This document shows positions 11,172-50,475 of a DNA stretch of 64,000 bases, piece by piece. The position numbers and the translations under genes were made by a program. Source of the DNA: Candidatus Doudnabacteria bacterium (GTDB taxonomy: Bacteria; Patescibacteriota; Doudnabacteria; UBA920); contig CAWINB010000004.1 of the NCBI GenBank assembly GCA_963837465.1, positions 724,393 through 788,392 on the forward strand. Direction: 5' to 3'. Within the stretch, counting starts at the first letter, position 1, and every line of letters begins with the position of its first letter. The notes below the pieces were generated by a model. That model did not search any database and was not told the origin of the DNA. It saw only the letters and a list, made by a program, of their open reading frames with translations.

Positions 11172-11547
11172 TTTGATTAAATTCTTGTCGCAGTTTTTCT
11201 ATAAAGATTTTTTCCTCCGGCGAAAAATGGTTATACCGGACGCCTTTAAAATCGTACGGATTATAACCGGTAATATGACGAAGCCACCTATAAGCGGCTT
11301 CGCGATCAATTTCCATATAGTTTGAATCCGATTTTGATATTTCCTGTTCTATTTTTCTGACATAAAAACTTAGGATCAAAAGTTCTTTATTAGTTAAATT
11401 TTCTAACTCAAAGATGTTATTTATGTATAAACGAGCCCTCGCCAACTTGCGGCTAAATTCACTTTTTCCCTCAAAAGCTTCCTTGTCTAAGGGGTTATCG
11501 CTTTCAATTTCCATTTTTCCATTCGCGTGACCGATTAATTTAACCAT
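11140..11547 (-). CDS. hypothetical protein
   Basis: 135-aa ORF between prfA and prmC. It overlaps the prmC start by about 30 bp. No family recognised. Confidence 0.4.
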   Translation of the reverse strand: MVKLIGHANGKMEIESDNPLDKEAFEGKSEFSRKLARARLYINNIFELENLTNKELLILSFYVRKIEQEISKSDSNYMEIDREAAYRWLRHITGYNPYDFKGVRYNHFSPEEKIFIEKLRQEFNQNDDTGSFEKS

Positions 11548-11556
11548 AGAAAAAAA

Positions 11557-12627
11557 TTATTTTTTTAATGCTTCCTTCTTCGCTTCCAAATCCGCTCTTT
11601 GCAAAGCGTCTATTATATCGGCAAATTTTCCTTCCATTATCAAATTTATCTGGTTGAAGTTTTCGTTTATGCGATGGTCCGTAACTCTATCCTGCGGGAA
11701 GTTGTAGGTGCGGATTTTTTCACTGCGGTCGCCGGTGCCAATTTGCGACTTGGTAAGGTCGCGGACTTTTTTGCTCTCAATCTGTTCGTAATGGGCGGCG
11801 ACTCGCGCGCGGATTACGGCCAGGGCTTTTTCCCTGTTTTGGGCCTGGGAGCGTTCGTCCTGGCATTGGGCGGTTATGCCGGTGGGAATATGCGTAATGC
11901 GGATGGCAGAATAAGTCGTGTTCACCGATTGCCCGCCGTGTCCGCTGGAAGTTGTCGCTTCAATTTTTAAATCTTTGTCCGCGATGGCGTAATCTTTTTC
12001 CTGCAAAATTGGCAAAACCGCCACCGTAATTGTAGATGTATGCACGCGTCCGGATTTTTCCGTATCCGGAACCCTTTGCACGCGGTGCACGCCGGATTCG
12101 TACTTAAGCATTTGGTATGGGTGATGCTCCGCGGAAACCCGTCCGTAAATTTCAAAAATCACTTCTTTGAATCCGCCGGCATCGCTTTTTGACGAAGAAA
12201 CAATGTGCGGTTTAAAGCCAAAACTCTCCGCGAATTTGCCGTAAGCCCTGAACATTTCCGCCGCAAAAAGCGTAGCCTCGTCGCCCCCGGCTCCGGCGCG
12301 GATTTCCACAATCACGTTTTTGTCGTCGTTGGCATCGTGCGGTAGGAGCATCTCTTCAATTTTAGATTTAAGGTCTAAGATTTTTGATTCCAGTCGCCGT
12401 CCTTCGTCCAAAGCCATGCTTTTAATTTCCGCGTCGCTGTCCGTTAAAAGTTTTTGGTTGCCTTCCAGCTCTTTTTCCAGTTTTTCCGCTTCCCGGATTT
12501 TTTCCACAATAGGCATCAGCCGCGCCTGCCTTTTTCCCAACTTGGCCATGTCGAAACCGCCGCCCTGGGACATATCCAGGGTCAGCTGGTTGTATTCGGT
12601 TAGGATTTTTTGAAAAGAAGTTTCCAT
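11557..12627 (-). CDS. prfA: peptide chain release factor 1
   Basis: GGQ motif (SSGHGGQSVNTT) and the RF1-type PxT-region RVPDTEKSGRVHTS. The start is taken at METSFQKIL (12627). Confidence 0.9.
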   Translation of the reverse strand: METSFQKILTEYNQLTLDMSQGGGFDMAKLGKRQARLMPIVEKIREAEKLEKELEGNQKLLTDSDAEIKSMALDEGRRLESKILDLKSKIEEMLLPHDANDDKNVIVEIRAGAGGDEATLFAAEMFRAYGKFAESFGFKPHIVSSSKSDAGGFKEVIFEIYGRVSAEHHPYQMLKYESGVHRVQRVPDTEKSGRVHTSTITVAVLPILQEKDYAIADKDLKIEATTSSGHGGQSVNTTYSAIRITHIPTGITAQCQDERSQAQNREKALAVIRARVAAHYEQIESKKVRDLTKSQIGTGDRSEKIRTYNFPQDRVTDHRINENFNQINLIMEGKFADIIDALQRADLEAKKEALKK

Positions 12628-12644
12628 AATATTACACAGATCAC

Positions 12645-12676
12645 AGATAAGCACAGATTCACAGATTGATTATCCG
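12645..12676. repeat. four direct cacagat repeats spaced 7-10 bp, immediately upstream of prfA
   Basis: cacagat occurs at 12645, 12652, 12662 and 12670. Confidence 0.6.
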
Positions 12677-12758
12677 GTTAGTAAAGTTCTTAGGAAAATT
12701 TCAACTATCCGTTCAGTAATCTGCGTCAATCCGTGATTTGTGGAGCAATTATATTCTA

Positions 12759-12792
12759 TCACAAAAACGCCCCCTTATTACAGAGGGCGTTG
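12759..12792 (-). terminator. putative rho-independent terminator of rpmE
   Basis: On the minus strand, aacgccc...gggcgtt is followed by tttgtgat. Confidence 0.45.
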
Positions 12793-12800
12793 TTAAGCGG

Positions 12801-13064
12801 TTACTTTTTGACAGTCCGGGCTTTGCGTTCTTTTTTCGGCTTTACGGCGGCCTTGATGCCGGCCGCGGCAATGGCGCGCTTTTTGAACTTGTCAATGCTT
12901 CCGGCCGCGTCCAAAAGCTTCTGCTTGCCGGTGTAAAAGGGATGGCACTGGCTGCAGACTTCGGTATGCAAAGCGGTTGCCGTGGAGCCGGTGGTAAAAC
13001 TGGCGCCGCAGGCGCAACTGACAACAACGGCGGTATTAAATTGGGGGTGGATGGCGGGTTTCAT
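12801..13064 (-). CDS. rpmE: 50S ribosomal protein L31 with a Lys-rich C-terminal extension
   Basis: [11 protein letters not shown]...[13 protein letters not shown]...DKFKKR. Confidence 0.85.
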
Positions 13065-13209
13065 GGAATTATATAAAATTAAATATTCAAAATATTTCCA
13101 CTTATTTCGCTATAATTCGTGAAGTATATTTCCGTTTATTTCTAAAATATGATGGAAATAAATAGAAATAAGGAAATATCCGGAAATACAGTTAACATCA
13201 TACAATGCC

Positions 13210-15769: not shown

Positions 15770-15845
15770 GCCGTTGTAGCTCAGTTGGTAGAGCAACTCC
15801 ATGGTAAGGAGTAGGTCATCGGTTCAATTCCGATCAACGGCTCCA
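15770..15845 (+). tRNA. tRNA-Thr (anticodon GGT)
   Basis: Cloverleaf as read: GCCGTTG/CAACGGC acceptor stem, anticodon loop ATGGTAA, T-loop TTCAATT, and an encoded CCA. Confidence 0.85.
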
Positions 15846-17330
15846 GTAACAAACATTTTCATTTTTTTCAAATTTTTTTAGAGATGCGCGAAGCGCATCG
15901 CTCGGTGGAATGGGGCGAAACTCAATTCTGCCATTATGCAGCAAGGGGTTCGAGCCGGAAATTTTCAATGCAATGGATTTTTTGGGGTGCAGTTCGGGCG
16001 AAAGCGTTATTTCGCCCAGTTTTTGTGCGTCTTTTATCCATTCCCGCATCGGTTCGAGCCAAGAAACAGACCCCCTGCGGAGATCGGTGATTTTCTCCTC
16101 CAGCGTCTTCTTATCCGAGAGCAGGCTTGCCTTCTCTCGAAGATATGACTCCCGGTCAATATCTTGGTCTAACAGGGCGGTAAGAAGGCGTTGGAGTTTT
16201 GCCTCAATAGCCAAAACTCGGCCTTTCATCTCTTGGCAGGCATTTGTGGATAACTGGCTATCCTGCTTAGCGTCCTGGTCCGCCATTTTTAAAAGTTCAG
16301 CTGCACCTTCCGGGGGCAGGACAAATTCTTTGAGAGTTTCGTTAAACAATCTGGCCAATGCTGCATCCCGGATGTATGACTGGGAACATTCAGTATTCTT
16401 TTTGGTACAGCGGTAATAGATATAATGATGAACTTTGCCGGAGACTTGCCGCTTGAGTTTGTTCTCGGCGGTAATGCTCCGACCGCACTCGCCGCACTTA
16501 AACAGCCCGCATAAGGGCTGCGACTCGTTCTTAGGCTTTTTATGAGGCCTACCACGGTCTTTAAGGACCGTTTGGACACGGTCAAACAACTTTTTGGTAA
16601 TTATGGCCTCGTGGTTACCTTGGTACAACTCACCGGCATACCAAAAATGACCGTAGTAAAAAGGGTTTGAGAGGATAACCGCCGACCGATCTCTGGGTAT
16701 GGTTTTTCCACCGGTTGTAAAAATTCCATGTTCAGCAAAAAAATTTGATATATCCTCCAAGCGGCTATCGCCTTGGGCGTAAAGTTCAAAAGCGGCCTTT
16801 ACGACTTTTGCTCGCTTGCGGTCAACGGTAACTTTTTTTATTCTGATGTCATTTAAATAGCCCAATGGGGCCAAGCATGGGTAGTCACCACGCCGGACTT
16901 TCTCGTAAAGTCCGCGTTTGGTGTTGGCGCTTAAGTCTAAAATAAACTGATTGGCCATACCGAGTTCAACCGCCATGACAAGAACATTGTCGGTAGGGTA
17001 ATAGCTTCGGTCGTGGGTTTGGACATGTTGAATCCTTCCCTTTTGGAGCATCCAGCTAATCTGGCCACCGTCAATCGGGTTACGGGCAAGGCGATCCAAC
17101 TTCCAGCAAATAATGCCCTGGGCTTCGCCCTGCTCAATCCGGGCTAGCATATCCGCAAACACCGGACGGCCGGGCTTCTGTGCGGATTGCTTTTCAACGA
17201 ACTCTTGGGCAATATGGAGGCCATCCTGGTTTGCTAATGCTCGCAATACAGCAAGCTGGTCATCAATAGACCGAACTTGCTTGTCTTCCACGTCAGTTGA
17301 TTTACGGGCGTAGAGAAAATAGTTTGACAT
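15834..17330 (-). CDS. large serine recombinase (resolvase catalytic domain + recombinase domain + zinc ribbon + coiled coil)
   Basis: YARKSTD...S..DQ catalytic region, a CxxC...CxxC zinc ribbon, and 498 aa in total. The last 4 codons overlap the tRNA-Thr 3' end. Confidence 0.85.
   Translation of the reverse strand: MSNYFLYARKSTDVEDKQVRSIDDQLAVLRALANQDGLHIAQEFVEKQSAQKPGRPVFADMLARIEQGEAQGIICWKLDRLARNPIDGGQISWMLQKGRIQHVQTHDRSYYPTDNVLVMAVELGMANQFILDLSANTKRGLYEKVRRGDYPCLAPLGYLNDIRIKKVTVDRKRAKVVKAAFELYAQGDSRLEDISNFFAEHGIFTTGGKTIPRDRSAVILSNPFYYGHFWYAGELYQGNHEAIITKKLFDRVQTVLKDRGRPHKKPKNESQPLCGLFKCGECGRSITAENKLKRQVSGKVHHYIYYRCTKKNTECSQSYIRDAALARLFNETLKEFVLPPEGAAELLKMADQDAKQDSQLSTNACQEMKGRVLAIEAKLQRLLTALLDQDIDRESYLREKASLLSDKKTLEEKITDLRRGSVSWLEPMREWIKDAQKLGEITLSPELHPKKSIALKISGSNPLLHNGRIEFRPIPPSDALRASLKKFEKNENVCYWSR
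15841..15987. repeat. IR-L: 147-bp segment (tRNA 3' end ctcca + recombinase 3' tail). Its inverted copy is at 19374-19520.
   Basis: Direct comparison of the reverse complement of 19374-19520 with 15841-15987 gives about 6 mismatches over 147 bp. Confidence 0.85.
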
Positions 17331-17418
17331 ATTTTGATTTGGCTTAGTGAATAAAGTTTGCTATCATTATATTGAAATAATAATACACTCAATATAATAC
17401 TATCAAGTTATTGAAATT

Positions 17419-17625
17419 ATGGCAATTCAAAATAACATAGGCGCAAATATTAAAAAGTTAAGGACTATATCGGGGTTATCGCAAGAAGACTTTGCAAAAA
17501 AGTCTGGCGTTAAATATACAACCCTGACAAAGATTGAAAGTGGGGTTATAAAAACTCCCTCGGTTTTAATTATGGCAAAAATTGCAAAGGCTTTAGGTGT
17601 TACGATTGAAAATTTAATAAAATAA
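17419..17625 (+). CDS. XRE-family helix-turn-helix transcriptional regulator
   Basis: LRTISGLSQEDFAKKSGVKYTTLTKIESG. It is transcribed divergently from the recombinase. Confidence 0.8.
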   Translation: MAIQNNIGANIKKLRTISGLSQEDFAKKSGVKYTTLTKIESGVIKTPSVLIMAKIAKALGVTIENLIK

Positions 17626-17637
17626 ATTTGCCCTTTT

Positions 17638-18741
17638 ATGGTGGAAGCGCCTGCGAACAAACAAATATGGTCTAACTCAAATCTATCAGAGGTTTTGCCT
17701 GGTATTGTTTTGCCTTTGGTTTCCAGCACTGTCATTAAAGTTGTGACAGAAGGCTTTGGGACTATCTTTCCCCTCAAAGCACAAGAGGAGATTTTAAAAG
17801 ACTTTAAAGGGAGAATTTATTTTAACGCCACCTTGGTAGAAGATATATTAAAAAAATTATTGGATTTGCATAAAGTCAGCCTTGAACAGATTTTGGGTGG
17901 TGACCAATCGGAATTTGGATTCGGGCAATCCCTAAAGTTTCCAAATAAGATACGCCTCGGAGCTTTTGTTATTAAACAGCTTTTACTTTCTTTTTTCGCC
18001 CAAATATATATTAAAGTTAGGTTTATTTCTTTTCGTAAGCACATTGATAATTATCTGCAAAACATAAAACGGGCTAATACGACCGATGAATTAAACCGAC
18101 AGTTTAGGCATATATCTAACTTTATTAGCAGTTTAGTAAACCCTGCTTTTCAAGCATTATTTTATCCTATTGCATTGCATCTTTTATTTTTAGAACTTTG
18201 TAAAAAATGGCTCGGGGCAGGATTTAACGAGCAGGCGCAAAATTTGCTGGCGGACGGTAAAAGCGACATTGAATTAGTGCACGCAATGGGTATGCTATGG
18301 AACATAAAGGAAGGGATAAGCAAAGACCCAAAATTCAAGCAGGAGTTTTTGGTTTCTTCCAATGCCAATGAGGCTATAAGCGTTCTCCGAAAGAACCAAG
18401 GGGTATATAAAAATTACTGTGATTTTTTGAATAAATTTGGCCAGCGTTGCATTAAGGAAATGGACTTTTCTTTGCCCCGCTGGAATGAAGACCCAACTTT
18501 TATAATTACGCTTATAAAAAAATATATTGAAACTCCCGACGGACAAAGCCCCTTAAAAAATAAAATTTTATTGGAGCAAAAAAATCTGATAGCAGTCAAC
18601 CAAGCTCGTCAGAATTTGTCCTGGTGGAAATATCATCTCTTAATGTTTGTTTTAAAGAAGTCAACTAAAGGATTGAATTTGAGAGAAAGGTGCAAGTTGG
18701 AATCTGGCCACATATTCCAAGTGCTTAGGTCTTTTTTTTAA
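17638..18741 (+). CDS. PEP-utilising-enzyme-family protein fragment (central region; no N-terminal ATP-grasp domain)
   Basis: Weak similarity to the middle part of PEP synthase/rifampicin-phosphotransferase-type enzymes. It continues in the next ORF after an 11-bp gap. Confidence 0.35.
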   Translation: MVEAPANKQIWSNSNLSEVLPGIVLPLVSSTVIKVVTEGFGTIFPLKAQEEILKDFKGRIYFNATLVEDILKKLLDLHKVSLEQILGGDQSEFGFGQSLKFPNKIRLGAFVIKQLLLSFFAQIYIKVRFISFRKHIDNYLQNIKRANTTDELNRQFRHISNFISSLVNPAFQALFYPIALHLLFLELCKKWLGAGFNEQAQNLLADGKSDIELVHAMGMLWNIKEGISKDPKFKQEFLVSSNANEAISVLRKNQGVYKNYCDFLNKFGQRCIKEMDFSLPRWNEDPTFIITLIKKYIETPDGQSPLKNKILLEQKNLIAVNQARQNLSWWKYHLLMFVLKKSTKGLNLRERCKLESGHIFQVLRSFF

Positions 18742-18752
18742 AGCTGGGCGAA

Positions 18753-19319
18753 TTGTGGGATAAAGAAAATTTAATTATAGAACCATCTGACATTTTTTAT
18801 TTTACTGCCTCGGAGCTAAATGGTTTTTTACAAACAAATTCTTTGGGTAATAAAAACCTATTCAATATCGTGGCCGAACGTAAAGCCGAATACCAGCACT
18901 ATGCCAAAATTAGTATGCCCGACAGAATTTTTGGAAATGAATATGACGAGTTTGCAAGTATTAAGGATGTTGCTCAAAAAGACCAGAGCTTGCCAATACA
19001 GAAGGAGCTCAAGGGGGTCGGAATTAGCGGCGGAGTTGTTGTAGGAATTGCACGGGTTCTTATGTCAGAAAATCAAATCTCGGAGATTAAGCCTGGAGAA
19101 ATTTTGGTCACAGACCATACTGACCCTGGTTGGACTCCAGTCTTTGGGGTGATTAAAGGGCTGGTTACCAATGTTGGTGGTCGCTTGTCCCACGCTTCCA
19201 TAGTAGCGAGAGAATACGGACTGCCGGCTGTTATAAGCGTTCCGAATGCCACAAAGATTATTTCAACAGGGCAACATATTTCACTTGATGCTAATAATGG
19301 AACGGTTAAAATTTTATAG
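18753..19319 (+). CDS. PEP-utilising enzyme mobile (phosphohistidine) domain protein
   Basis: VTDHTDPGWTPVFGVIKGLVTNVGGRLSHASIVAREYGLPAVIS is the canonical swivelling His-domain motif. Confidence 0.65.
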   Translation: MWDKENLIIEPSDIFYFTASELNGFLQTNSLGNKNLFNIVAERKAEYQHYAKISMPDRIFGNEYDEFASIKDVAQKDQSLPIQKELKGVGISGGVVVGIARVLMSENQISEIKPGEILVTDHTDPGWTPVFGVIKGLVTNVGGRLSHASIVAREYGLPAVISVPNATKIISTGQHISLDANNGTVKIL

Positions 19320-19373
19320 AATTTTACACAGTAACAATATTTAATTATTTTCTCTGCGTTTGCGCCCTGCGTC

Positions 19374-19520
19374 TCCCCAAAAAATCCATTGCATTGAAAA
19401 TTTCCGGCTCGAACCCCTTGCTAAAAAATGGCAGGATTGAGTTTGACCCCATTCCACCGAGCGATGCGCTTCGCGCATCTCTAAAAAAATTTGAAAAAAA
19501 TGAAAATGTTTGTTACTGGA
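19374..19520. repeat. IR-R: inverted copy of the tRNA-end/recombinase-tail segment
   Basis: See IR-L. The plus strand here encodes ...PKKSIALKISGSNPLLKNGRIEFDPIPPSDALRASLKKFEKNENVCYW. Confidence 0.85.
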
Positions 19521-19545
19521 GAGAGCTGTATGACAAAGTCCGCAC

Positions 19546-19800
19546 CTATTTTATCAAAAACAGGTTCAATCCAAAGATTTTTTGTGCAGCCGATTTTTTG
19601 GGGTGCAGCTCTGCGCTTTGCGTGATTGCGCCCAGTTTTTCTGCGTCTTTTATGAAGTTTTTGACCGGTTCAATCCAAGTTCCCTGGCTCCGCTCCAAAC
19701 GGGCGACTTGCTCGGTCAAAGTCTTCTTTTCCAAGGTCAACTTGTTCTTCTCCTGCCGGTACTGTTCTGGCTCAATATCTTCGGCCAGATAGGGTAACAT
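19546..19800 (-). pseudogene. diverged 3' fragment of a second large serine recombinase gene, in the same orientation as rec1
   Basis: LTLEKKTLTEQVARLERSQGTWIEPVKNFIKDAEKLGAITQSAELHPKKS aligns with rec1 residues about 395-450. It ends prematurely. Confidence 0.6.
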
Positions 19801-19909: not shown

Positions 19910-20197
19910 ATGGCATTATCCTGGAATGAGATTAAAACCAGAGCGGTAGAGTTTTCCAAAGAGTGGGAAAATGAAACCAGTGAAGACGCCGAGGCCAAAA
20001 GTTTTTGGGACGGCTTTTTTAATGTCTTTGGCATGACCCGCAAACGTCTGGCCAGCTTTGAATTTGAAGTCAAAAAGCGCGGCGGCAACAGCGGCTTTAT
20101 AGATCTATTTTGGCCAGGCACTTTGATTGTTGAACATAAGTCCCGAGGCAAGAACTTAGAAAAGGCTTACGCTCGATTCCCAGCAGCATTTACCTGA
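19910..20197 (+). pseudogene. N-terminal fragment (95 aa) of an MmeI/PglX-type N6-adenine methyltransferase-restriction protein
   Basis: SWNEIKTRAVEFSKEWENETSEDAEAKSFWDGFFNVFG...IDLFWPGTLIVEHKSRGK is the conserved N-terminal domain of MmeI-like/BREX PglX proteins. The ORF stops after 95 aa. Confidence 0.6.
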
Positions 20198-20962: not shown

Positions 20963-22108
20963 ATGAAGAAGCAAGAAATTGGTGTTTATATAAAACAGAC
21001 CGAAGGCTTTAAGGCTTTTGTCCCTTATCCTTTTCCACCAAACGGCGGCTTTGACTTTGGCCATGAGATATTAAAGAAAAATGACCAGGCAAGCAGGTTA
21101 CTGGGAAAACTGGATGGCATTACCAAGTTGTTGCCGGATTCAGACTTCTTTTTGCTTATGTATTTAAGAAAGGATGCCGCTTCTTCCAGCCAGATTGAAG
21201 GAACCAGGGCTACCATGATAAATGCCATAGAAGCGGAAGCTAAAGTAAGCGGCAACGTGCCCGCGGACGTAGACGACATTTTGCATTATATAAAAGCCCT
21301 AAACTACGGCATGAAACGGGTGGTTGCGGATGAGTTTCCTGTGTCACTTCGCTTTTTAAGAGAGCTGCATAAAAAACTCATGGACCAAGCCAGGGCAACT
21401 CATTTTTCCGACCCCGGAGAATTCCGCAAAACACAAAATTGGATTGGCGGGAATAAACCAGGCAACGCCAGTTTTGTCCCTCCGCCCGTTTCAGAAATGC
21501 ATCGCGCGTTAAATGACTTGGAAAAATTTATGCATTCGCGGGACGCCACCCTGACGCTAATTAAAGCCGCTCTGCTTCACGCGCAATTTGAAACTATCCA
21601 CCCGTTTTTGGACGGTAATGGCCGCACCGGAAGGATGCTGATAACTTTTTACTTGTGGAAAGAAGGTTTTCTGGAAAAACCCGTTTTGTTCTTGTCTTCC
21701 TACTTCAAAAAATTTCAACAGGTTTATTATCAAAAATTGTTTGGCTACCACCATGGTGAAGTTGAGTTTTGGGTTGATTTTTTTCTGGACGGAGTTATTG
21801 AAATTGCCAACGAAGCCATAGACATTGTAGGAAAAATTACCACTCTCAGAGAACAAGACATGCAAAAAATACAAAAGCTGGGAACTCGCGCCTCGGAAAG
21901 CGCTGCCTCTATTTTACCTAAATTGTACGGACAGCCAATTGTTAATAACGCGTTAGTACAAAAATGGACCGGCTTTACCCGGGCAGGCGCTCAAAGAGTG
22001 ATAGATAGATTTATTAAAATGCGGATTCTTTTGCCTAAAGACCAGGACATAAAATACGGGCAATCTTACGCTTATACAAAATATATTGCCATTTTTGGGA
22101 ATAAGTAG
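20963..22108 (+). CDS. Fic/DOC-family adenylyltransferase (Fic_N + Fic domains)
   Basis: The Fic motif HPFLDGNGRTGRML is present. Confidence 0.85.
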   Translation: MKKQEIGVYIKQTEGFKAFVPYPFPPNGGFDFGHEILKKNDQASRLLGKLDGITKLLPDSDFFLLMYLRKDAASSSQIEGTRATMINAIEAEAKVSGNVPADVDDILHYIKALNYGMKRVVADEFPVSLRFLRELHKKLMDQARATHFSDPGEFRKTQNWIGGNKPGNASFVPPPVSEMHRALNDLEKFMHSRDATLTLIKAALLHAQFETIHPFLDGNGRTGRMLITFYLWKEGFLEKPVLFLSSYFKKFQQVYYQKLFGYHHGEVEFWVDFFLDGVIEIANEAIDIVGKITTLREQDMQKIQKLGTRASESAASILPKLYGQPIVNNALVQKWTGFTRAGAQRVIDRFIKMRILLPKDQDIKYGQSYAYTKYIAIFGNK

Positions 22109-22115
22109 AATTACC

Positions 22116-22442
22116 ATGAACGAAGCCGAAACAAGAGCTGAATATGTTGACCCAAAACTAAAGGCGGGCGGCTGGGGCGAGACCGAAGGATCAAAAGTCC
22201 TGCGGGAATTTCGTATTACCGAAGGGCGTATCCAAGTCGGCGGGGAGCGCGCCAAACCGGAAATTGCCGATTATATTTTGGTTTATAAAAACCAAAAGCT
22301 CGCGGTTATCGAAGCAAAAAAAGAAGACCTTTTGCCAACCGAAGGCGTAGCCCAGGCCATAGCCAGAAATTGTTCCCAGCAGGAGAAGTTTTTAACCCGA
22401 TACTCGCCCCTGTACCTGGCAACACATTTATTGAATTTGTAA
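22116..22442 (+). pseudogene. N-terminal fragment (about 108 aa) of a type I/III restriction endonuclease R subunit
   Basis: MNEAETRAEYVDPKLKAGGWGE...ADYILVYKNQKLAVIEAKK is the conserved HsdR/Res N-terminal nuclease-domain start. The ORF terminates early. Confidence 0.55.
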
Positions 22443-22880: not shown

Positions 22881-22975
22881 TTTAATTTCTTTTTTGCCTC
22901 CGCGCCCCGCGCCCCCAAAAAATCCTTCGCACTGAAAATTTCCGCGTTGAACCCTTTGCTAAAAAGGGCTGTTGA
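22881..22975. repeat. third, degenerate copy of the recombinase-tail/att-like segment, in the same orientation as IR-R
   Basis: ccccaaaaaatccttcgcactgaaaatttccgcgttgaaccctttgctaaaaa aligns with 19371-19430. The upstream GC-rich run is also shared. Confidence 0.6.
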
Positions 22976-23359: not shown

Positions 23360-23722
23360 ATGAATTCCAAAACCACACTATCAATTTCCGAAGCCAGAAA
23401 AAGGATTTTTGAAATCGCGGAAGAAGTCCAAAGACCTGGCGTTTATTATACTTTAACCGATAAGGGCAGGCCCAAAGCGGTAATGGTATCTTTTGACGAA
23501 TACGAATCTTTAATGGAGACTATTGAAGTAACGGGGGAAATGCCTGAACTGGATAAAGATATTAAAGAAGCGCGCGAGGCTTACAAGAGCGGCGAATATA
23601 AAACCTGGACTACTTTGGAAGGTTTGTTAGCCAAGCAAGGTTTTGTTTTGGCGGAAAAAGCAAAAAAACAATATGGCGTTTCTTCTAAGGCTCAATCCAA
23701 ACGCAGAAAAACAATTAAATAA
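23360..23722 (+). CDS. Phd/YefM-family antitoxin
   Basis: N-terminal LSISEARKRIFEIAEEV...KAVMVSFDEYESLMETIE. Confidence 0.75.
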   Translation: MNSKTTLSISEARKRIFEIAEEVQRPGVYYTLTDKGRPKAVMVSFDEYESLMETIEVTGEMPELDKDIKEAREAYKSGEYKTWTTLEGLLAKQGFVLAEKAKKQYGVSSKAQSKRRKTIK

Positions 23723-28071: not shown

Positions 28072-28713
28072 ATGTTGATATTTATTGACGAATCCGGGGA
28101 TCCTGGGTTAAAACTTGGTGAAGGTTCAAGTAAATATTTTACTGTGGCTTTAGTAGTGTTTGAGGAAAATGATGAAGCGCTTGCTTGCGACCAAAAGATT
28201 GAATTGTTCAAGCGAGAATTGGGATGGAAGCCAAAAAGCGAATTTCATTTTAAAAATAACTCAGACAGAGTCCGCAAAGGCTTTTTGCAGGCAGTCGCGC
28301 CGTACAATTTTTTTTATTATGGAATTGTTTTAAACAAAGACCCTAAAAAGTTATGGGGCGAAGGATTTAAGGACAAGCAATCCTTTTACAAATACGCTTG
28401 CGGCCTGGTTTTTGAAAATGCAAAACCCAAACTTACAGAAGCAACAGTTATTATTGATGCCAGCGGCAGTTTGGATTTTAAAAATCAGCTGACTAAATAC
28501 CTGCGCCGCAAATTTAATGAGCAAGGAAATTCAGGTTCTAAAATAATCAAAAATGTAAAGATGCAACGCTCGGAAAGTAATAATTTATTGCAGCTGGCGG
28601 ATTATATTGCAGGCGTAATTAACCGCTCAATCAATAACACTAAAAAATACTCCGGCGATTACAGAAAGCTTATAGCTCACAGGGAGATAAGGGTACAAAT
28701 TTGGCCAAATTAA
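28072..28713 (+). CDS. DUF3800-family protein embedded between hsdM and hsdS
   Basis: N-terminal IFIDESGD and C-terminal LLQLADYIAG signatures. It starts 8 bp after the hsdM stop. Confidence 0.6.
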   Translation: MLIFIDESGDPGLKLGEGSSKYFTVALVVFEENDEALACDQKIELFKRELGWKPKSEFHFKNNSDRVRKGFLQAVAPYNFFYYGIVLNKDPKKLWGEGFKDKQSFYKYACGLVFENAKPKLTEATVIIDASGSLDFKNQLTKYLRRKFNEQGNSGSKIIKNVKMQRSESNNLLQLADYIAGVINRSINNTKKYSGDYRKLIAHREIRVQIWPN

Positions 28714-28886
28714 AACTTCCGACCCTATCCCTTGCGGGAACGCGGCGATAAACGCCACAGTTCAGATCGGAAGCGATTCCATTGTTATTATATCTGACTA
28801 TTAACCTTTGTCAAGAACTGTTAAGACTTGTTAAGCAATTATTCCCTTAATAACAAAAAAAGCCTATAATTAAGGCACTATAATTA

Positions 28887-48937: not shown

Positions 48938-49024
48938 GGGCAGGTACTCAAGCGGTCAACGAGGACTGACTGTAAATCAGTTGGCTTTACGCCTTCATAG
49001 GTTCGAATCCTATCCTGCCCACCA
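48938..49024 (+). tRNA. tRNA-Tyr (anticodon GTA), class II with a long variable arm
   Basis: GGGCAGG/CCTGCCC acceptor stem, anticodon loop CTGTAAA, T-loop TTCGAAT, and an encoded CCA. Confidence 0.8.
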
Positions 49025-50475
49025 TTGAAAAATTTCCAGCTTTTTTGGCGATTCCGCTATTAGCTGATAAGGTTGTTTGAGCTGAAAACATTGTGTGTTA
49101 CCATCTTGGAGCTTAAGGTTCCAAAGTAACTTTTTCAGCAATTCAAACTTTTTAGCGTTATCGCCGGAAAGATAATCAAAACTAGCAGAATTGGCCTGTA
49201 AGAAGGCCTTTTTTGTTTGTTCCAAAGTTGCCAACTGTTGTTCGGGAGTAATCTTGCCTAAATCGGAAATCTGCTTTGTGATAGTTTCCACATCCTGCTT
49301 CAGAGATAAAATTTTAGGCTTGAGCGTTTCTTTCATATCGGGGTCAGAGGAAATCATCTCAATTAGGTTTGCGAGTTTGCCTTGAGCCGTTTTAAGCTGT
49401 TTGGCCAGTTCTGATTTTTTGTCATCAGTTGAACCGCCCTGTTTTAGGATTTTATGCTTGGCCGCTTCGTAAGCCATTTCCATTTCATTGATGTCAAACT
49501 GAACATTGCTAAAAACTTTAGCCACTAACTCATCGTTGCCTTATCCCTTAAATATTTTCTGTGCTGTTCACAATTTCCTTTGCCATTGGTGCAGTACCAA
49601 TAAATGTGGCCTTTTTTAGTTGTTGCTGTTAAAGCACAACCACAAGAAAAGCAATTCATAAAACCTCTTAATGGAAAAAAGTGTTTTTGGGCTTTGGGGT
49701 GATGTTTGCCGTTTAAGACATCTTGGACATTATCAAACAGGGTTTTGCTGATTAATGGCGGATGATTGCCGGGGTAAAGCTGGCCGTTACTCCGCATTGT
49801 GCCATAGTAAAATGGCTGGGTTAAGATTTTATGCAATAAGGCTTTGCTGACTTTAAAGCCCTCTCTAGTGTTTAAGCCCTGCTTTTCTAAAATTTCATTA
49901 ACCTGCTTAAGAGAATAGCCGCCGGTAGCGTAAAGTTCAAAGGCTTGTTTAACTAATGAACCTCTAATGGGGTCAATTTCTTTTAGCTTGGTAATTTTGT
50001 TATCAATGTAACCCAAGGGGGAGCGGTTCGGCCATTCACCCCTTTCTAATTTGGTGCGGTTGCCACGCTTCACATTTTTGGACAGGTCGATGCTGTATTG
50101 TGCGGCCATACTAAACTCCACGCCGGAAACCAAAACATTGTCTTCGGGATAGTAAGTTTTTTCGGGAGTGATTATTTTACCGATTATTCCAGTTTGCAAT
50201 AGCCATTTAATTTTACCCTCGTCAATGGGGTTTCTGGCGAGCCGGTCAAGTTTCCAAACCAAAACCACAGAGCCAGGGTTACGCTCAATTAAACTTACAA
50301 GCTTTGCAAATTCAGGACGGCCGGGTTTTCTTGCCGACATACTTTCGGTAAAACTTTTATCAACAGCAATATTTTGTTTTTCCGCAAAAGCCGCCAACTC
50401 CTTTTCTTGGCTCTCAATGGAAAGCACCTGATGATAGGAATCTTCGGACGAATGAACAATGGGGACATGACCCAT
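49010..50475 (-). pseudogene. second large serine recombinase, split by a frameshift at about 49525
   Basis: 49525..50475 encodes the catalytic + recombinase + zinc-ribbon region. It lacks the conserved N-terminal Y/R residues, and its start codon lies inside an IS hairpin. 49010..49525 encodes the coiled-coil C-terminal region in another frame. The 3' end overlaps tRNA-Tyr, the same layout as at tRNA-Thr. Confidence 0.7.

What the first reader, a model, noticed from the sequence alone, without database searches (positions are those of the whole stretch)
15770..19800. tRNA-Thr-anchored 3.7-kb unit: large serine recombinase whose 3' end overlaps the tRNA, bracketed by 147-bp near-perfect inverted repeats
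The recombinase stop lies inside the tRNA-Thr 3' end. The 147 bp spanning ctcca + the last 48 codons (15841-15987) recur in inverted orientation at 19374-19520 with about 6 mismatches. Directly beyond IR-R there is another, diverged recombinase 3' fragment in direct orientation (19546-19800). Serine-integrase attL/attR pairs share only a few bp, so 147-bp inverted repeats are not expected from simple integration. Three explanations are possible. One is a recombinase-controlled invertible segment that would swap the recombinase's C-terminal 48 codons (...VCYWSR* versus ...VCYWRELYDK...). Another is a serine-transposon-like element with long terminal repeats. The third is scarring from tandem integrations followed by inversion. 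The cargo is an XRE repressor plus PEP-utilising-enzyme fragments.
Basis: seen in the sequence. Interest (0 to 1): 0.75.

Follow-up and report, generated by a model that had tools for sequence, protein, structure and literature searches.

The report
Spare inverted attP inside tRNA-integrated element
The 147-bp inverted repeat is real, but it is not a transposon end: it is a second, intact, flipped copy of the recombinase's own attachment site, a feature shared by a large and apparently undescribed family of tRNA-targeting integrative elements in Patescibacteria, of which this window holds a truncated, decaying copy.

Summary
The arms lie at 15841-15987 and 19375-19521 (141 of 147 bases match), and the recombinase stop lies inside tRNA-Thr. 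The recombinase is a 498-aa large serine recombinase (LSR). I examined 160 related loci, all those with named organisms from Patescibacteria. In 93 of them the gene reads into the antisense 3' end of one of 13 tRNA species. Of the 46 with at least 3 kb upstream, 41 carry the same inverted copy of the last ~150 nt. That copy continues past the crossover into a conserved "native tail" (xLYxxARTYFxxN*), so it is an intact inverted attP. In complete relatives the true ends are an ordinary attL/attR pair sharing 3-5 nt, and the attR abuts host genes. One relative occurs at 100% identity in two forms: integrated at tRNA-Tyr, and circularly permuted with two inverted 537-bp attP-bearing repeats. The P arm carries the tRNA T-arm motif 4 bp further from the crossover, the known LSR attP/attB geometry. 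In the window the P side is cut about 40 nt beyond the core. The cargo module and attR are missing, and remnants of an older element follow. An inversion switch remains possible but is not shown. What the second attP does is unknown.

The parts
15770..15845 (+). tRNA-Thr(GGT). This is the integration target and forms the B arm of attL. Its last 5 nt (CTCCA) are shared with the element.
   Evidence: ARAGORN; Rfam RF00005, 71.6 bits.
15841..15846 (.). Core of the attL junction (CTCCAG). It is the last stretch shared by the tRNA junction and the inverted attP copy, so the crossover dinucleotide must lie within it.
   Evidence: The alignment of the two arms ends here. In relatives, attL, the internal attP and attR share 3-5 nt at the equivalent place.
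15841..15987 (-). IR-L. It comprises the P' side of the attachment site and the last 48 codons of the recombinase.
15834..17330 (-). rec1, an intact 498-aa large serine recombinase in the integrated form. Its native ~14-aa tail is replaced by SR*.
   Evidence: Homologues carry PF00239, PF07508 and PF13408. The catalytic-region residues R9 and S11 are invariant. PDB matches are the SPbeta YokA and A118 integrases.
17331..17418 (.). Divergent rec/XRE intergenic region with two 21-nt direct repeats (17361-17381 and 17400-17420). These are candidate operators.
   Evidence: the repeat finder family D6. The operator role is an inference.
17419..17625 (+). XRE-type HTH gene, a conserved divergent partner of the recombinase.
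   Evidence: HTH_3, E = 3.7e-16. A divergent XRE-like gene lies 38-126 nt upstream of rec in 42 of 160 loci.
17638..19319 (+). Cargo of the rec module: a 367-aa ORF without a Pfam hit, followed by a 188-aa ORF with a PEP-utilizers mobile domain. It is probably one disrupted gene.
19375..19521 (+). IR-R, the P' side of a second, inverted attachment site. It is a copy of the last 48 codons with no gene body attached.
   Evidence: The same feature is found in 103 related loci.
19522..19562 (+). P arm of the inverted attP. It encodes the family's native tail (R)ELYDKVRTYFIKN. It has lost its stop codon and everything beyond.
   Evidence: Native tails of homologues. The arm is unique in the window.
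19546..19800 (-). rec2, a 3' fragment of an older recombinase of the same family. It is truncated at both ends and lacks about the last 34 codons.
   Evidence: tblastn matches aa 387-464 at 53% identity. Direct repeat D1 is 72% identical.
22913..22960 (+). Remnant of the inner end of another inverted attP copy, probably belonging to the older element.
   Evidence: blastn gives 85-87% identity to IR-R with the same inner boundary. The sequence is shown.

Best explanation
Region 15841 to about 19560 is the tRNA-proximal part of a decayed integrative element. The element belongs to a widespread Patescibacteria family driven by a large serine recombinase (LSR).

In this family attP overlaps the last ~15 codons of the recombinase gene. 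The crossover falls in the last few nucleotides of a tRNA gene. Integration therefore replaces the native tail, which is a predicted terminal helix, with whatever the antisense tRNA encodes. Here that is SR*.

IR-R is not an element end. It is a second, intact, inverted attP: about 147 nt of P' flank, the core, and the P arm encoding the native tail. Most family members carry such a copy inside the element, between the recombinase module (M1) and a cargo module (M2).

The real right end in complete relatives is an ordinary attR (P arm, a 3-5 nt core, then host DNA). Excision gives a circle with two inverted attP-bearing repeats of about 300-540 bp.

In the window the P side is cut about 40 nt beyond the core, and M2 and attR are gone. 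A 3' fragment of an older recombinase and an older attP remnant follow. This is tandem accretion and decay at tRNA-Thr.

Shown: the anatomy, its recurrence, the attL/attR/internal-attP architecture, and the existence of both integrated and unintegrated forms of one relative. Inferred: the crossover position, the deletion that removed M2 and attR, and any function of the second attP.
For: 1. Homologue C-termini fall into two classes after a conserved stretch: a native tail (..LV|ALYxxVRTYFIKNS*) or antisense-tRNA read-through.

2. Of 160 loci, 93 are tRNA-fused, across 13 tRNA species. Of the 46 with at least 3 kb upstream, 41 carry the inverted copy. Of 103 inverted copies, 64 continue into a native-tail ORF with a stop, and 26 end at a contig end (examples).

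3. The inverted copy sits mid-contig in long contigs (L066, L028), including MFD assemblies (L008) that I take to be long-read.

4. Eight loci show three sites. S1 is rec|tRNA. S2 is the inverted full attP. S3 is X|P in direct orientation to S1 and shares only 3-5 nt with it. The P side (148-344 nt) is repeated between S2 and S3. S3 abuts a release factor (L060), alanine racemase (L067) and Hsp20/PrsW (L024).

5. L163 and L167 are 100% identical over 9.4 kb and diverge exactly at the core. L167 is integrated at tRNA-Tyr and holds a 537-nt inverted attP copy. In L163 the rec attP is intact and is followed by M2, and both contig ends run into the second copy.

6. L001 is the closest long relative (69% identity, also at tRNA-Thr). 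L001 and L054 are single-attP elements with a direct attR carrying the native tail.

7. The P arm carries TCGAACC, the antisense of the tRNA T-arm, 4 bp further from the junction than in the tRNA arm. This mirrors the 5-bp shift of the zinc-ribbon motif between attP and attB (PMC3783163).

8. The window has no second P arm and no other native-tail ORF. Gene fragments follow: MmeI_N and HSDR_N.
Against: - No reads are available, so the state of this particular locus (fixed or flipping) is unknown.
- The circular form is inferred from a circularly permuted contig (L163) and could instead be a tandem array. No contig with a direct terminal overlap was found.
- In about 15 long loci no second P-side repeat was found within 4-9 kb. 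The attR may be further away or absent there.
- If both attP copies of a circle were equivalent, integration should fuse the tRNA to rec only half the time. Yet tRNA-fused forms outnumber native ones 93 to 6. Something unexplained favours one copy or one state.
- The closest relatives (L001, L084) lack the inverted copy.
Confidence: 0.78

Rival explanations
1. This is an active inversion switch. The 3.4-kb segment flips between IR-L and IR-R, either by the recombinase acting on attL and the inverted attP, or by RecA acting on the 147-bp repeats. Flipping toggles the recombinase between a tail-less (SR*) form and a native-tail form, which would be a built-in on/off or directionality control.
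For: - Both inner arms are P', so inversion regenerates the same two site types (logic derived).
- L132 and L140 are chromosomal arrays in which rec points the same way as the tRNA and reads into the internal attP with a native tail. L140 shows rec in the opposite orientation relative to M2/attR when compared with L060.
- Repeat identity is at least 98% in 37 of 103 loci, even though elements differ by 40-50% at the protein level. This implies concerted evolution.
- The repeats (about 150 nt) are much longer than a 25-bp half-site.
- The tail is predicted to form the last helix of a folded C-terminal module.
Against: - tRNA-fused forms outnumber native-tail forms 93 to 6.
- The gene order of L163 excludes a flip and fits excision.
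- The same state-2 layout can arise from integration through the other attP copy, without any flipping.
- One subfamily has a ~10-nt indel between the two copies, which would frameshift rec if RecA recombined internal to it.
- In the window the flipped ORF would run on for about 70 junk codions because the stop is lost. The repeat is only 96% identical.
- Known LSRs do not synapse attL with attP (PMC3783163).
Confidence: 0.14
2. This is a serine-recombinase transposon whose termini are the 147-bp inverted repeats. On this view the unit 15841-19521 moves as such.
For: Minimal relatives consist of little more than the rec gene between the two copies, with only 124-280 nt between the distal copy and the rec start (L070, L060, L045).
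Against: - The flank outside the distal repeat is a conserved, element-encoded P arm. It is found fused to rec in unintegrated forms.
- Complete relatives end at a direct attR further away, next to host genes.
- Inverted LSR sites give inversion, not excision.
Confidence: 0.03
3. This is a one-off rearrangement scar (tandem integration followed by an accidental inversion or duplication) or an assembly artefact.
For: The neighbourhood is scarred. It holds the rec2 fragment, the MmeI_N and HSDR_N fragments, a split PEP gene, and a truncated P side.
Against: - The same inverted copy, with the same inner boundary region and a native-tail P arm, recurs in 103 independent loci at 13 tRNA species. 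These include copies lying mid-contig in contigs of 200-600 kb.
- The two arms differ at 6 positions, so they are not a collapsed or duplicated assembly path.
Confidence: 0.03

Closest known systems
Phage-type large serine recombinases / serine integrases (A118/LI integrase, SPbeta SprA, phiC31, Bxb1)
   Same: - The domain set is the same: Resolvase, Recombinase and Zn_ribbon_recom, with long coiled-coil helices.
- attL and attR share only a few nt.
- The same DNA motif occurs in the attP-type and attB-type half-sites, displaced by 4 bp here and 5 bp in A118.
   Different: - attP lies inside the 3' end of the recombinase's own gene, so integration swaps its C-terminus.
- The target is the extreme 3' end of tRNA genes (13 species), and the P arm mimics the T-arm.
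- Most elements carry a second, inverted attP inside a 300-540-bp repeat.
- No relatives were found in IMG/VR. The cargo is defence genes plus T4CP-like and Replic_Relax genes.
Integration-dependent immunity of mycobacteriophages (BPs, Brujita, Charlie) and SSV1-type integrases whose attP lies within a gene (recalled from my own knowledge)
   Same: attP sits inside a coding sequence, so integration changes the gene product. The integrated and free forms of the element make different proteins.
   Different: Those systems use tyrosine integrases. The altered gene is the repressor (loss of a degradation tag) or an integrase split in two. Here the altered gene is a serine recombinase that loses only its last ~15 residues. 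No functional consequence has been shown.
Yeast 2-micron plasmid (Flp/FRT inside 599-bp inverted repeats) and other flip-flop inverted-repeat replicons (own knowledge)
   Same: The inferred circular form has two long inverted repeats, each holding a target of the element's own site-specific recombinase. They split the circle into two unique segments, one of which carries the recombinase gene.
   Different: The recombinase is a serine enzyme, not a tyrosine one. Inversion has not been demonstrated and no replication origin has been identified. The element integrates into the chromosome. LSRs are not known to recombine attP with attP.
Serine DNA invertase switches (Hin, Gin, Cin, Pin; the P1 C segment with 0.6-kb inverted repeats) (own knowledge)
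   Same: A segment is bracketed by inverted repeats and associated with a serine recombinase. As with Hin, the recombinase gene lies inside the segment. Alternative C-termini are possible in principle.
   Different: The enzyme is a 498-aa LSR, not a ~190-aa invertase with a C-terminal HTH. The sites are att-type (tRNA arm and P arm), not hix/gix sites. There is no evidence of both orientations.
Tycheposons and other tRNA-targeting genomic islands
   Same: They integrate at tRNA 3' ends, accumulate in tandem with decaying remnants, and carry defence or accessory cargo. A minority of tycheposons carry an LSR (10.1101/2020.12.28.424599).
   Different: Tycheposons are overwhelmingly tyrosine-recombinase elements of Prochlorococcus. 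A term search of that paper found no mention of an attP overlapping the recombinase gene or of an internal inverted attP.

Membership tests
Large serine recombinase (serine integrase) family | N-terminal resolvase catalytic domain with the serine nucleophile | tested here: met
   PF00239 is present in all 120 listed homologues. R9, K10, S11 and D13 are invariant in the alignment headed by the window protein. phmmer hits the SPbeta YokA integrase over residues 3-193.
Large serine recombinase (serine integrase) family | Recombinase domain plus zinc-ribbon domain with an inserted coiled coil | tested here: met
   PF07508 and PF13408 are present. C274, C279, C282 and C308 are invariant. Residues 165-313 match A118 integrase. 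The AF2 model of homologue P0012 has long paired helices at 340-388 and 393-420.
Large serine recombinase (serine integrase) family | attP x attB gives attL and attR that share only a short core | tested here: inconclusive
   This is met in relatives, where S1 and S3 share 3-5 nt and an attL and an intact attP of the same element are 100% identical up to the core. In the window only attL and an intact attP are present. No attR was found.
Large serine recombinase (serine integrase) family | The distal (zinc-ribbon) DNA motif lies closer to the centre in attB half-sites than in attP half-sites | tested here: met
   GAACC starts at +16 in the tRNA arm and at +20 in the P arm. The difference is 4 nt in 28 of 40 loci, and the remaining +9 cases are mis-hits on GAATC. 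In A118 the shift is 5 bp (PMC3783163).
Large serine recombinase (serine integrase) family | Unidirectional catalysis, with excision dependent on a directionality factor | not testable with these tools
   This needs biochemistry. No candidate directionality factor was identified.
Double-attP, tRNA-targeting LSR elements of Patescibacteria (a group defined here; no published name found) | The recombinase ORF reads across the crossover into the antisense 3' end of a tRNA gene | tested here: met
   In the window the stop at 15834-15836 lies inside tRNA-Thr. 93 of 160 relatives show the same arrangement.
Double-attP, tRNA-targeting LSR elements of Patescibacteria (a group defined here; no published name found) | An inverted copy of the last ~110-180 nt of rec lies upstream of the gene and continues into a P arm encoding the native tail | tested here: met
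   The window has 19375-19521 plus RELYDKVRTYFIKN. 103 loci have the copy, and 64 of these have a tail ORF with a stop. In the window the stop is lost.
Double-attP, tRNA-targeting LSR elements of Patescibacteria (a group defined here; no published name found) | A second inverted repeat (P side), a cargo module and a direct attR next to host DNA | tested here: not met
   The window holds no second P arm and no other native-tail ORF. The P side ends after about 40 nt, at the rec2 fragment. I therefore file the window copy as a truncated member.
Double-attP, tRNA-targeting LSR elements of Patescibacteria (a group defined here; no published name found) | A divergent XRE-type HTH gene immediately upstream of rec | tested here: met
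   HTH_3 at 17419-17625. 42 of 160 loci have one 38-126 nt upstream of rec. It is also present in L081, L082 and L163-L167.
Serine DNA invertase switches (Hin/Gin/Cin/Pin) | A small (~190 aa) recombinase with a C-terminal HTH acting on short inverted crossover sites | tested here: not met
   The enzyme is a 498-aa LSR. The sites are att-type and have different outer arms, one the tRNA and one the P arm.
Serine DNA invertase switches (Hin/Gin/Cin/Pin) | Both orientations of the segment coexist in a population | not testable with these tools
   No reads are available. Among relatives only L132, L140 and possibly L043 show the other relative orientation.
Serine transposons (IS607, Tn4451/TnpX, Tn5397/TndX) | The recombinase sites are the element termini, with target DNA beyond them | tested here: not met
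   The DNA beyond the distal repeat is the conserved P arm, which is joined to rec in unintegrated forms. The true ends are attL and attR.
2-micron-like flip-flop replicons | A circle divided by two long inverted repeats, each carrying the recombinase target | tested here: inconclusive
   Comparison of L163 with L167 implies a circle of about 16.5 kb, or a tandem form, with two inverted 537-bp attP-bearing repeats. No closed circular contig was recovered. Inversion and replication were not tested.

The most novel reading that the evidence does not exclude
This LSR family has a built-in, factor-free control of its own activity and direction. Integration removes the recombinase's last helix because attP lies in its own 3' end. 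A spare inverted attP, held in a long repeat, lets the gene regain that helix by flipping. Alternatively the spare attP gives the free circle a 2-micron-like flip-flop. Recognition of the universal tRNA T-arm, mimicked in the P arm, would let the family retarget among at least 13 tRNA species.
Probability: 0.22. Interest if true: 0.85.

Novelty: new variant of a known kind. Interest (0 to 1): 0.62.

Why it matters
LSRs are leading tools for inserting large DNA into genomes, and their direction is normally set by a separate directionality factor. This family departs from the textbook layout in three ways:

- Its attP overlaps the recombinase's own stop region, so integration rewrites the enzyme's C-terminus.
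- It targets the conserved T-arm end of many different tRNA genes, with a T-arm mimic in attP.
- It usually keeps a second inverted attP.

The family is very common in Patescibacteria: 5645 of the 8000 candidates scored were protein hits, and each of the two collection scans yielded more than 540 confirmed loci. These bacteria have small genomes and their mobile elements are poorly known. Many short-read contigs end within about 50-140 nt beyond the distal attP copy. Knowing the architecture would therefore also help assembly and island annotation.

The particular copy in this window is a decaying example and is of little functional interest in itself.

Tried and rejected
- I searched the window for a second P arm or attR. 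A pattern search with 3 mismatches, blastn-short and a six-frame native-tail regex all found nothing.
- I searched for an inverted copy belonging to the second, frameshifted LSR at tRNA-Tyr. There is none within the window.
- The IMG/VR scan found no relatives, so a phage origin was set aside.
- I looked for closed circular contigs with a direct terminal overlap. None was found. Only contigs with inverted terminal repeats turned up (L002, L095, L106, L162). These are what an unresolved inverted repeat yields. The ~1.5-kb palindromic arms of L162 are probably an assembler choice and I did not use them.
- I first suspected that contigs end exactly k nt past the repeat, which would be an artefact signature. 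Sequence inspection showed instead repeat and hairpin motifs just after the tail stop, so I dropped that idea.
- I first read the synonymous-codon pattern of the tail (R = CGA/AGA, F = TTT/TTC) as clean evidence for protein-level selection. I tempered this after finding that CGAACC is also a DNA motif shared with the tRNA arm.
- Seven literature searches found no description of this architecture.
- The simple tandem model does not explain the orientation of the P arm next to rec2 unless an extra deletion is assumed.

Full report
**Check of the observation.** The window holds tRNA-Thr(GGT) at 15770-15845. A 498-aa ORF lies on the minus strand at 15834..17330, and its TGA stop sits inside the tRNA. 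The repeat finder and MAFFT give inverted arms at 15841-15987 and 19375-19521, matching at 141 of 147 bases. The next-longest inverted repeat in the 6-kb region is 25 nt. The arm next to the tRNA ends ...VCYW|SR*. The distal arm reads ...VCYW|RELYDKVRTYFIKN... on the plus strand. A diverged recombinase 3' fragment follows at about 19546-19800 on the minus strand (tblastn, aa 387-464, 53% identity). A third copy, 48 nt long, of the inner end of the repeat lies at 22913-22960 in the orientation of IR-R. The cargo is an HTH_3 protein and a PEP-utilizers domain ORF.

**The protein.** It is a large serine recombinase (LSR). All listed homologues carry PF00239, PF07508 and PF13408. The catalytic-region residues and the zinc-ribbon cysteines are invariant. 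The solved relatives are the SPbeta and A118 integrases. The family is large: 5645 of the 8000 candidates scored were hits, and the best hit is 76% identical. Where named, the organisms belong to Patescibacteria.

**The key lead.** Homologues share a conserved C-terminal stretch and then split into two classes. One class ends in a short conserved native tail, such as ...LV|AFYNELRTYFIKNP*. The other class runs into sequences such as RRDSNPRP or GIEPTT, which are translations of antisense tRNA. The attachment site of this family therefore overlaps the 3' end of the recombinase gene, and integration into a tRNA replaces the tail. In the window, IR-L is the integrated junction. IR-R together with the next ~40 nt encodes the native tail, so IR-R is an intact attP lying in inverted orientation.

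**Recurrence.** I fetched 80 loci from species genomes and 80 from metagenomes and analysed them with scripts.
- 93 of 160 loci have the ORF reading into an antisense tRNA. Thirteen tRNA species are used.
- 41 of the 46 tRNA-fused loci with at least 3 kb upstream have an inverted copy of the last ~150 nt of rec upstream of the gene. The median length is 158 nt and the median identity 92%; 37 of the 103 copies found are at least 98% identical.
- The copy lies 59 to 8995 nt from the rec start.
- Of 103 such copies, 64 continue past the junction into a native-tail ORF with a stop. In 26 the contig ends first.
- The feature lies mid-contig in 200-600-kb contigs and in MFD assemblies, which I take to be long-read (L008, L028, L066).

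The repeat is therefore an inherited family feature. It is neither a scar nor an assembly artefact.

**The real ends.** In at least eight long loci the P side of the internal site (148-344 nt) is itself repeated, inverted, further upstream. At that third site the P arm is joined to unrelated DNA. The third site is in direct orientation to the tRNA junction and shares only 3-5 nt with it. Its outer flank is host DNA: a release factor in L060, alanine racemase in L067, and Hsp20 and PrsW in L024. This gives the following layout:
- attL (tRNA | P')
- the rec module M1
- the inverted intact attP
- the cargo module M2
- attR (P | host)

M2 often carries T4CP-like (TrwB/TraG/DUF87) and Replic_Relax genes. 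M1 often carries restriction-modification genes, DUF3800 genes and an XRE gene divergent from rec (42 of 160 loci). No relatives were found in IMG/VR. Two relatives, L001 and L054, lack the internal copy and have only a direct attR carrying the native tail. L001 is the window's closest long relative and also sits at tRNA-Thr. These are ordinary single-attP elements.

**Both forms of one element.** A 90% protein cluster (P0048) contains two kinds of protein that are identical up to ...ENELSCILV. One kind continues into antisense tRNA-Tyr; the other continues into AIYNTGWTYFSRKL*. The corresponding contigs are 100% identical over 9.4 kb and diverge exactly at the core.
- In L165-L167 the element is integrated at tRNA-Tyr next to host genes. 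L167 holds a 537-nt inverted attP copy (372 nt of P side, the core, and 165 nt of P') between M2 and M1.
- In L163 the attP at the end of rec is intact and is followed by M2. Both contig ends run into the second copy.
- The order of M2 genes in L163 fits a circular permutation, meaning an excised circle of about 16.5 kb or a tandem. It excludes a flip of M1.

Other clusters also mix native tails with several different tRNA-derived tails.

**Site geometry.** The tRNA arm carries TCGAACC, the antisense of the T-arm, with GAACC starting 16 nt after the junction. The P arm carries the same motif starting at +20, a shift of 4 nt in most loci. In the window the shift is 5 nt and the motif has one mismatch. 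For A118 integrase the zinc-ribbon motif lies 5 bp closer to the centre in attB than in attP (PMC3783163). The P arm thus behaves as a genuine attP half-site and the tRNA T-arm as the attB half-site. This would also explain how the family spreads over many tRNAs.

The shared motif also means that conservation of the tail (LYxxARTYF) is partly a DNA constraint. The synonymous variation (R = CGA 36, AGA 19; F = TTT 33, TTC 30) is compatible with protein-level selection as well. An AF2 model of a native-tail homologue (mean pLDDT 87) places the tail as the last helix (residues 492-509) of a C-terminal helix/hairpin/helix module.

**The window copy.** The P side stops about 40 nt beyond the core. 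The stop codon of the tail and everything beyond it are gone. No second P arm or native-tail ORF exists in the 64 kb. Next comes rec2, in the orientation expected for an older element that was pushed away from the tRNA. It is followed by MmeI_N and HSDR_N fragments and a Fic gene. After that comes a remnant of another inverted attP copy at 22913-22960. I infer tandem accretion of two generations of the family at tRNA-Thr. I also infer one deletion running from the P side of the newer element's internal attP into the 3' end of rec2. This is an inference; the junction shows only a short CAAAAAC/GTTTTTG overlap.

**Function of the second attP.** This is not settled. An inversion between attL and the inverted attP would regenerate the same site types and would give rec its native tail back. 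L132 and L140 show that layout in chromosomal arrays. The high identity of many repeats implies concerted evolution.

Several points argue against frequent flipping:
- the 93-to-6 excess of tRNA-fused forms;
- the ~10-nt indels between the copies in one subfamily;
- the fact that the alternative layout can also arise by integration through the other attP.

The strong excess of the tRNA-fused state is itself unexplained if the two attP copies of a circle are equivalent.

**Comparison and novelty.** The enzyme is a member of the LSR family. The element works like an LSR integrative element, possibly a mobilisable one. Three things differ from described systems: attP lies inside the recombinase's own 3' end, the target is the tRNA T-arm with a mimic in attP, and there is an internal inverted attP within 300-540-bp repeats. 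The nearest analogies are integration-dependent immunity of mycobacteriophages and SSV-type integrases (attP within a gene), the 2-micron plasmid (recombinase targets inside long inverted repeats), and invertase switches. Seven full-text searches found no description of this layout. Tycheposons include a few LSR elements, but a term search of that paper found no mention of these features. I rate it a new variant of a known kind. The window's own copy is a decaying member.

Noticed in passing
window 48938-50475: A second, more distant LSR (41% identity to rec1) lies on the minus strand. It is split by a frameshift into ORFs 49525-50475 and 49010-49525. Its 3' end overlaps the 3' end of tRNA-Tyr (48938-49024), the same gene-into-tRNA arrangement. 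No inverted copy of its 3' end exists in the window.
   Followed up: partly
window 28711-28774 (- strand), 28072-28713: Rfam finds a DUF3800-IX RNA (54.7 bits). It lies directly after a DUF3800 gene that sits inside a type I restriction-modification operon (hsdM 26523, hsdS 29721, hsdR 31736). DUF3800 genes also recur in the rec modules of related elements (L028, L067, L068).
   Followed up: no
window 19910-20197, 22086-22442, 20963-22108, 23360-23722: The stretch after the rec2 fragment holds gene fragments (MmeI N-terminal domain, HsdR N-terminus) alongside intact Fic and Phd-antitoxin genes. The region from 15.8 kb to about 40 kb looks like a defence and accessory island built by accretion at tRNA-Thr. 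Host-like genes (sigma factor, MacAB-type transporter) resume at about 40.6 kb.
   Followed up: partly
related loci, just after the native-tail stop (e.g. L004 1-119, L014 1-116, L056 1-122, L081 5676-5725): Directly beyond the tail stop many elements carry two direct copies and one inverted copy of a ~10-12-nt motif, for example ACCCCTTCA x2 followed by TGAAGGGGT. Many short-read contigs end within or near this motif. It could be an accessory binding site, an oriT-like site or a terminator.
   Followed up: no
related loci, P arm +17 to +28 from the junction; window 19538-19552: The P arm of attP carries CTCGAACCTATTT. Its TCGAACC core equals the antisense tRNA T-arm but lies 4 nt further from the crossover. 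The conserved RTYF of the protein tail is the translation of this DNA motif.
   Followed up: yes
L066 746-2335 and 2241-2528: An unrelated LSR (32% identity) reads toward the attR of the main element, and its 3' end overlaps the attR outer flank. This suggests tandem stacking of different LSR elements at one tRNA.
   Followed up: no
L081 32-2077 vs 11173-13206: A 13.6-kb contig with a native-tail rec carries two paralogous AAA_15/AAA_21 modules (73% identical), each starting right after an inverted attP copy. It is probably a composite or tandem of two related elements and was not resolved.
   Followed up: partly
L163 14397-14470: The cargo module of the tRNA-Tyr element carries its own tRNA-Arg(TCT) gene between T4CP-like genes.
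   Followed up: no
window 17361-17381 and 17400-17420: Two 21-nt direct repeats (CTATCATTATATTGAAATAAT and CTATCAAGTTATTGAAATTAT) lie in the 88-nt divergent rec/XRE intergenic region. They are likely operator sites.
   Followed up: no
protein hits P0050 and P0134: Some homologues have long C-terminal extensions: a PF00486 Trans_reg_C domain in P0050, and a total length of 700 aa in P0134. These presumably arise from read-through beyond the junction into neighbouring genes.
   Followed up: no
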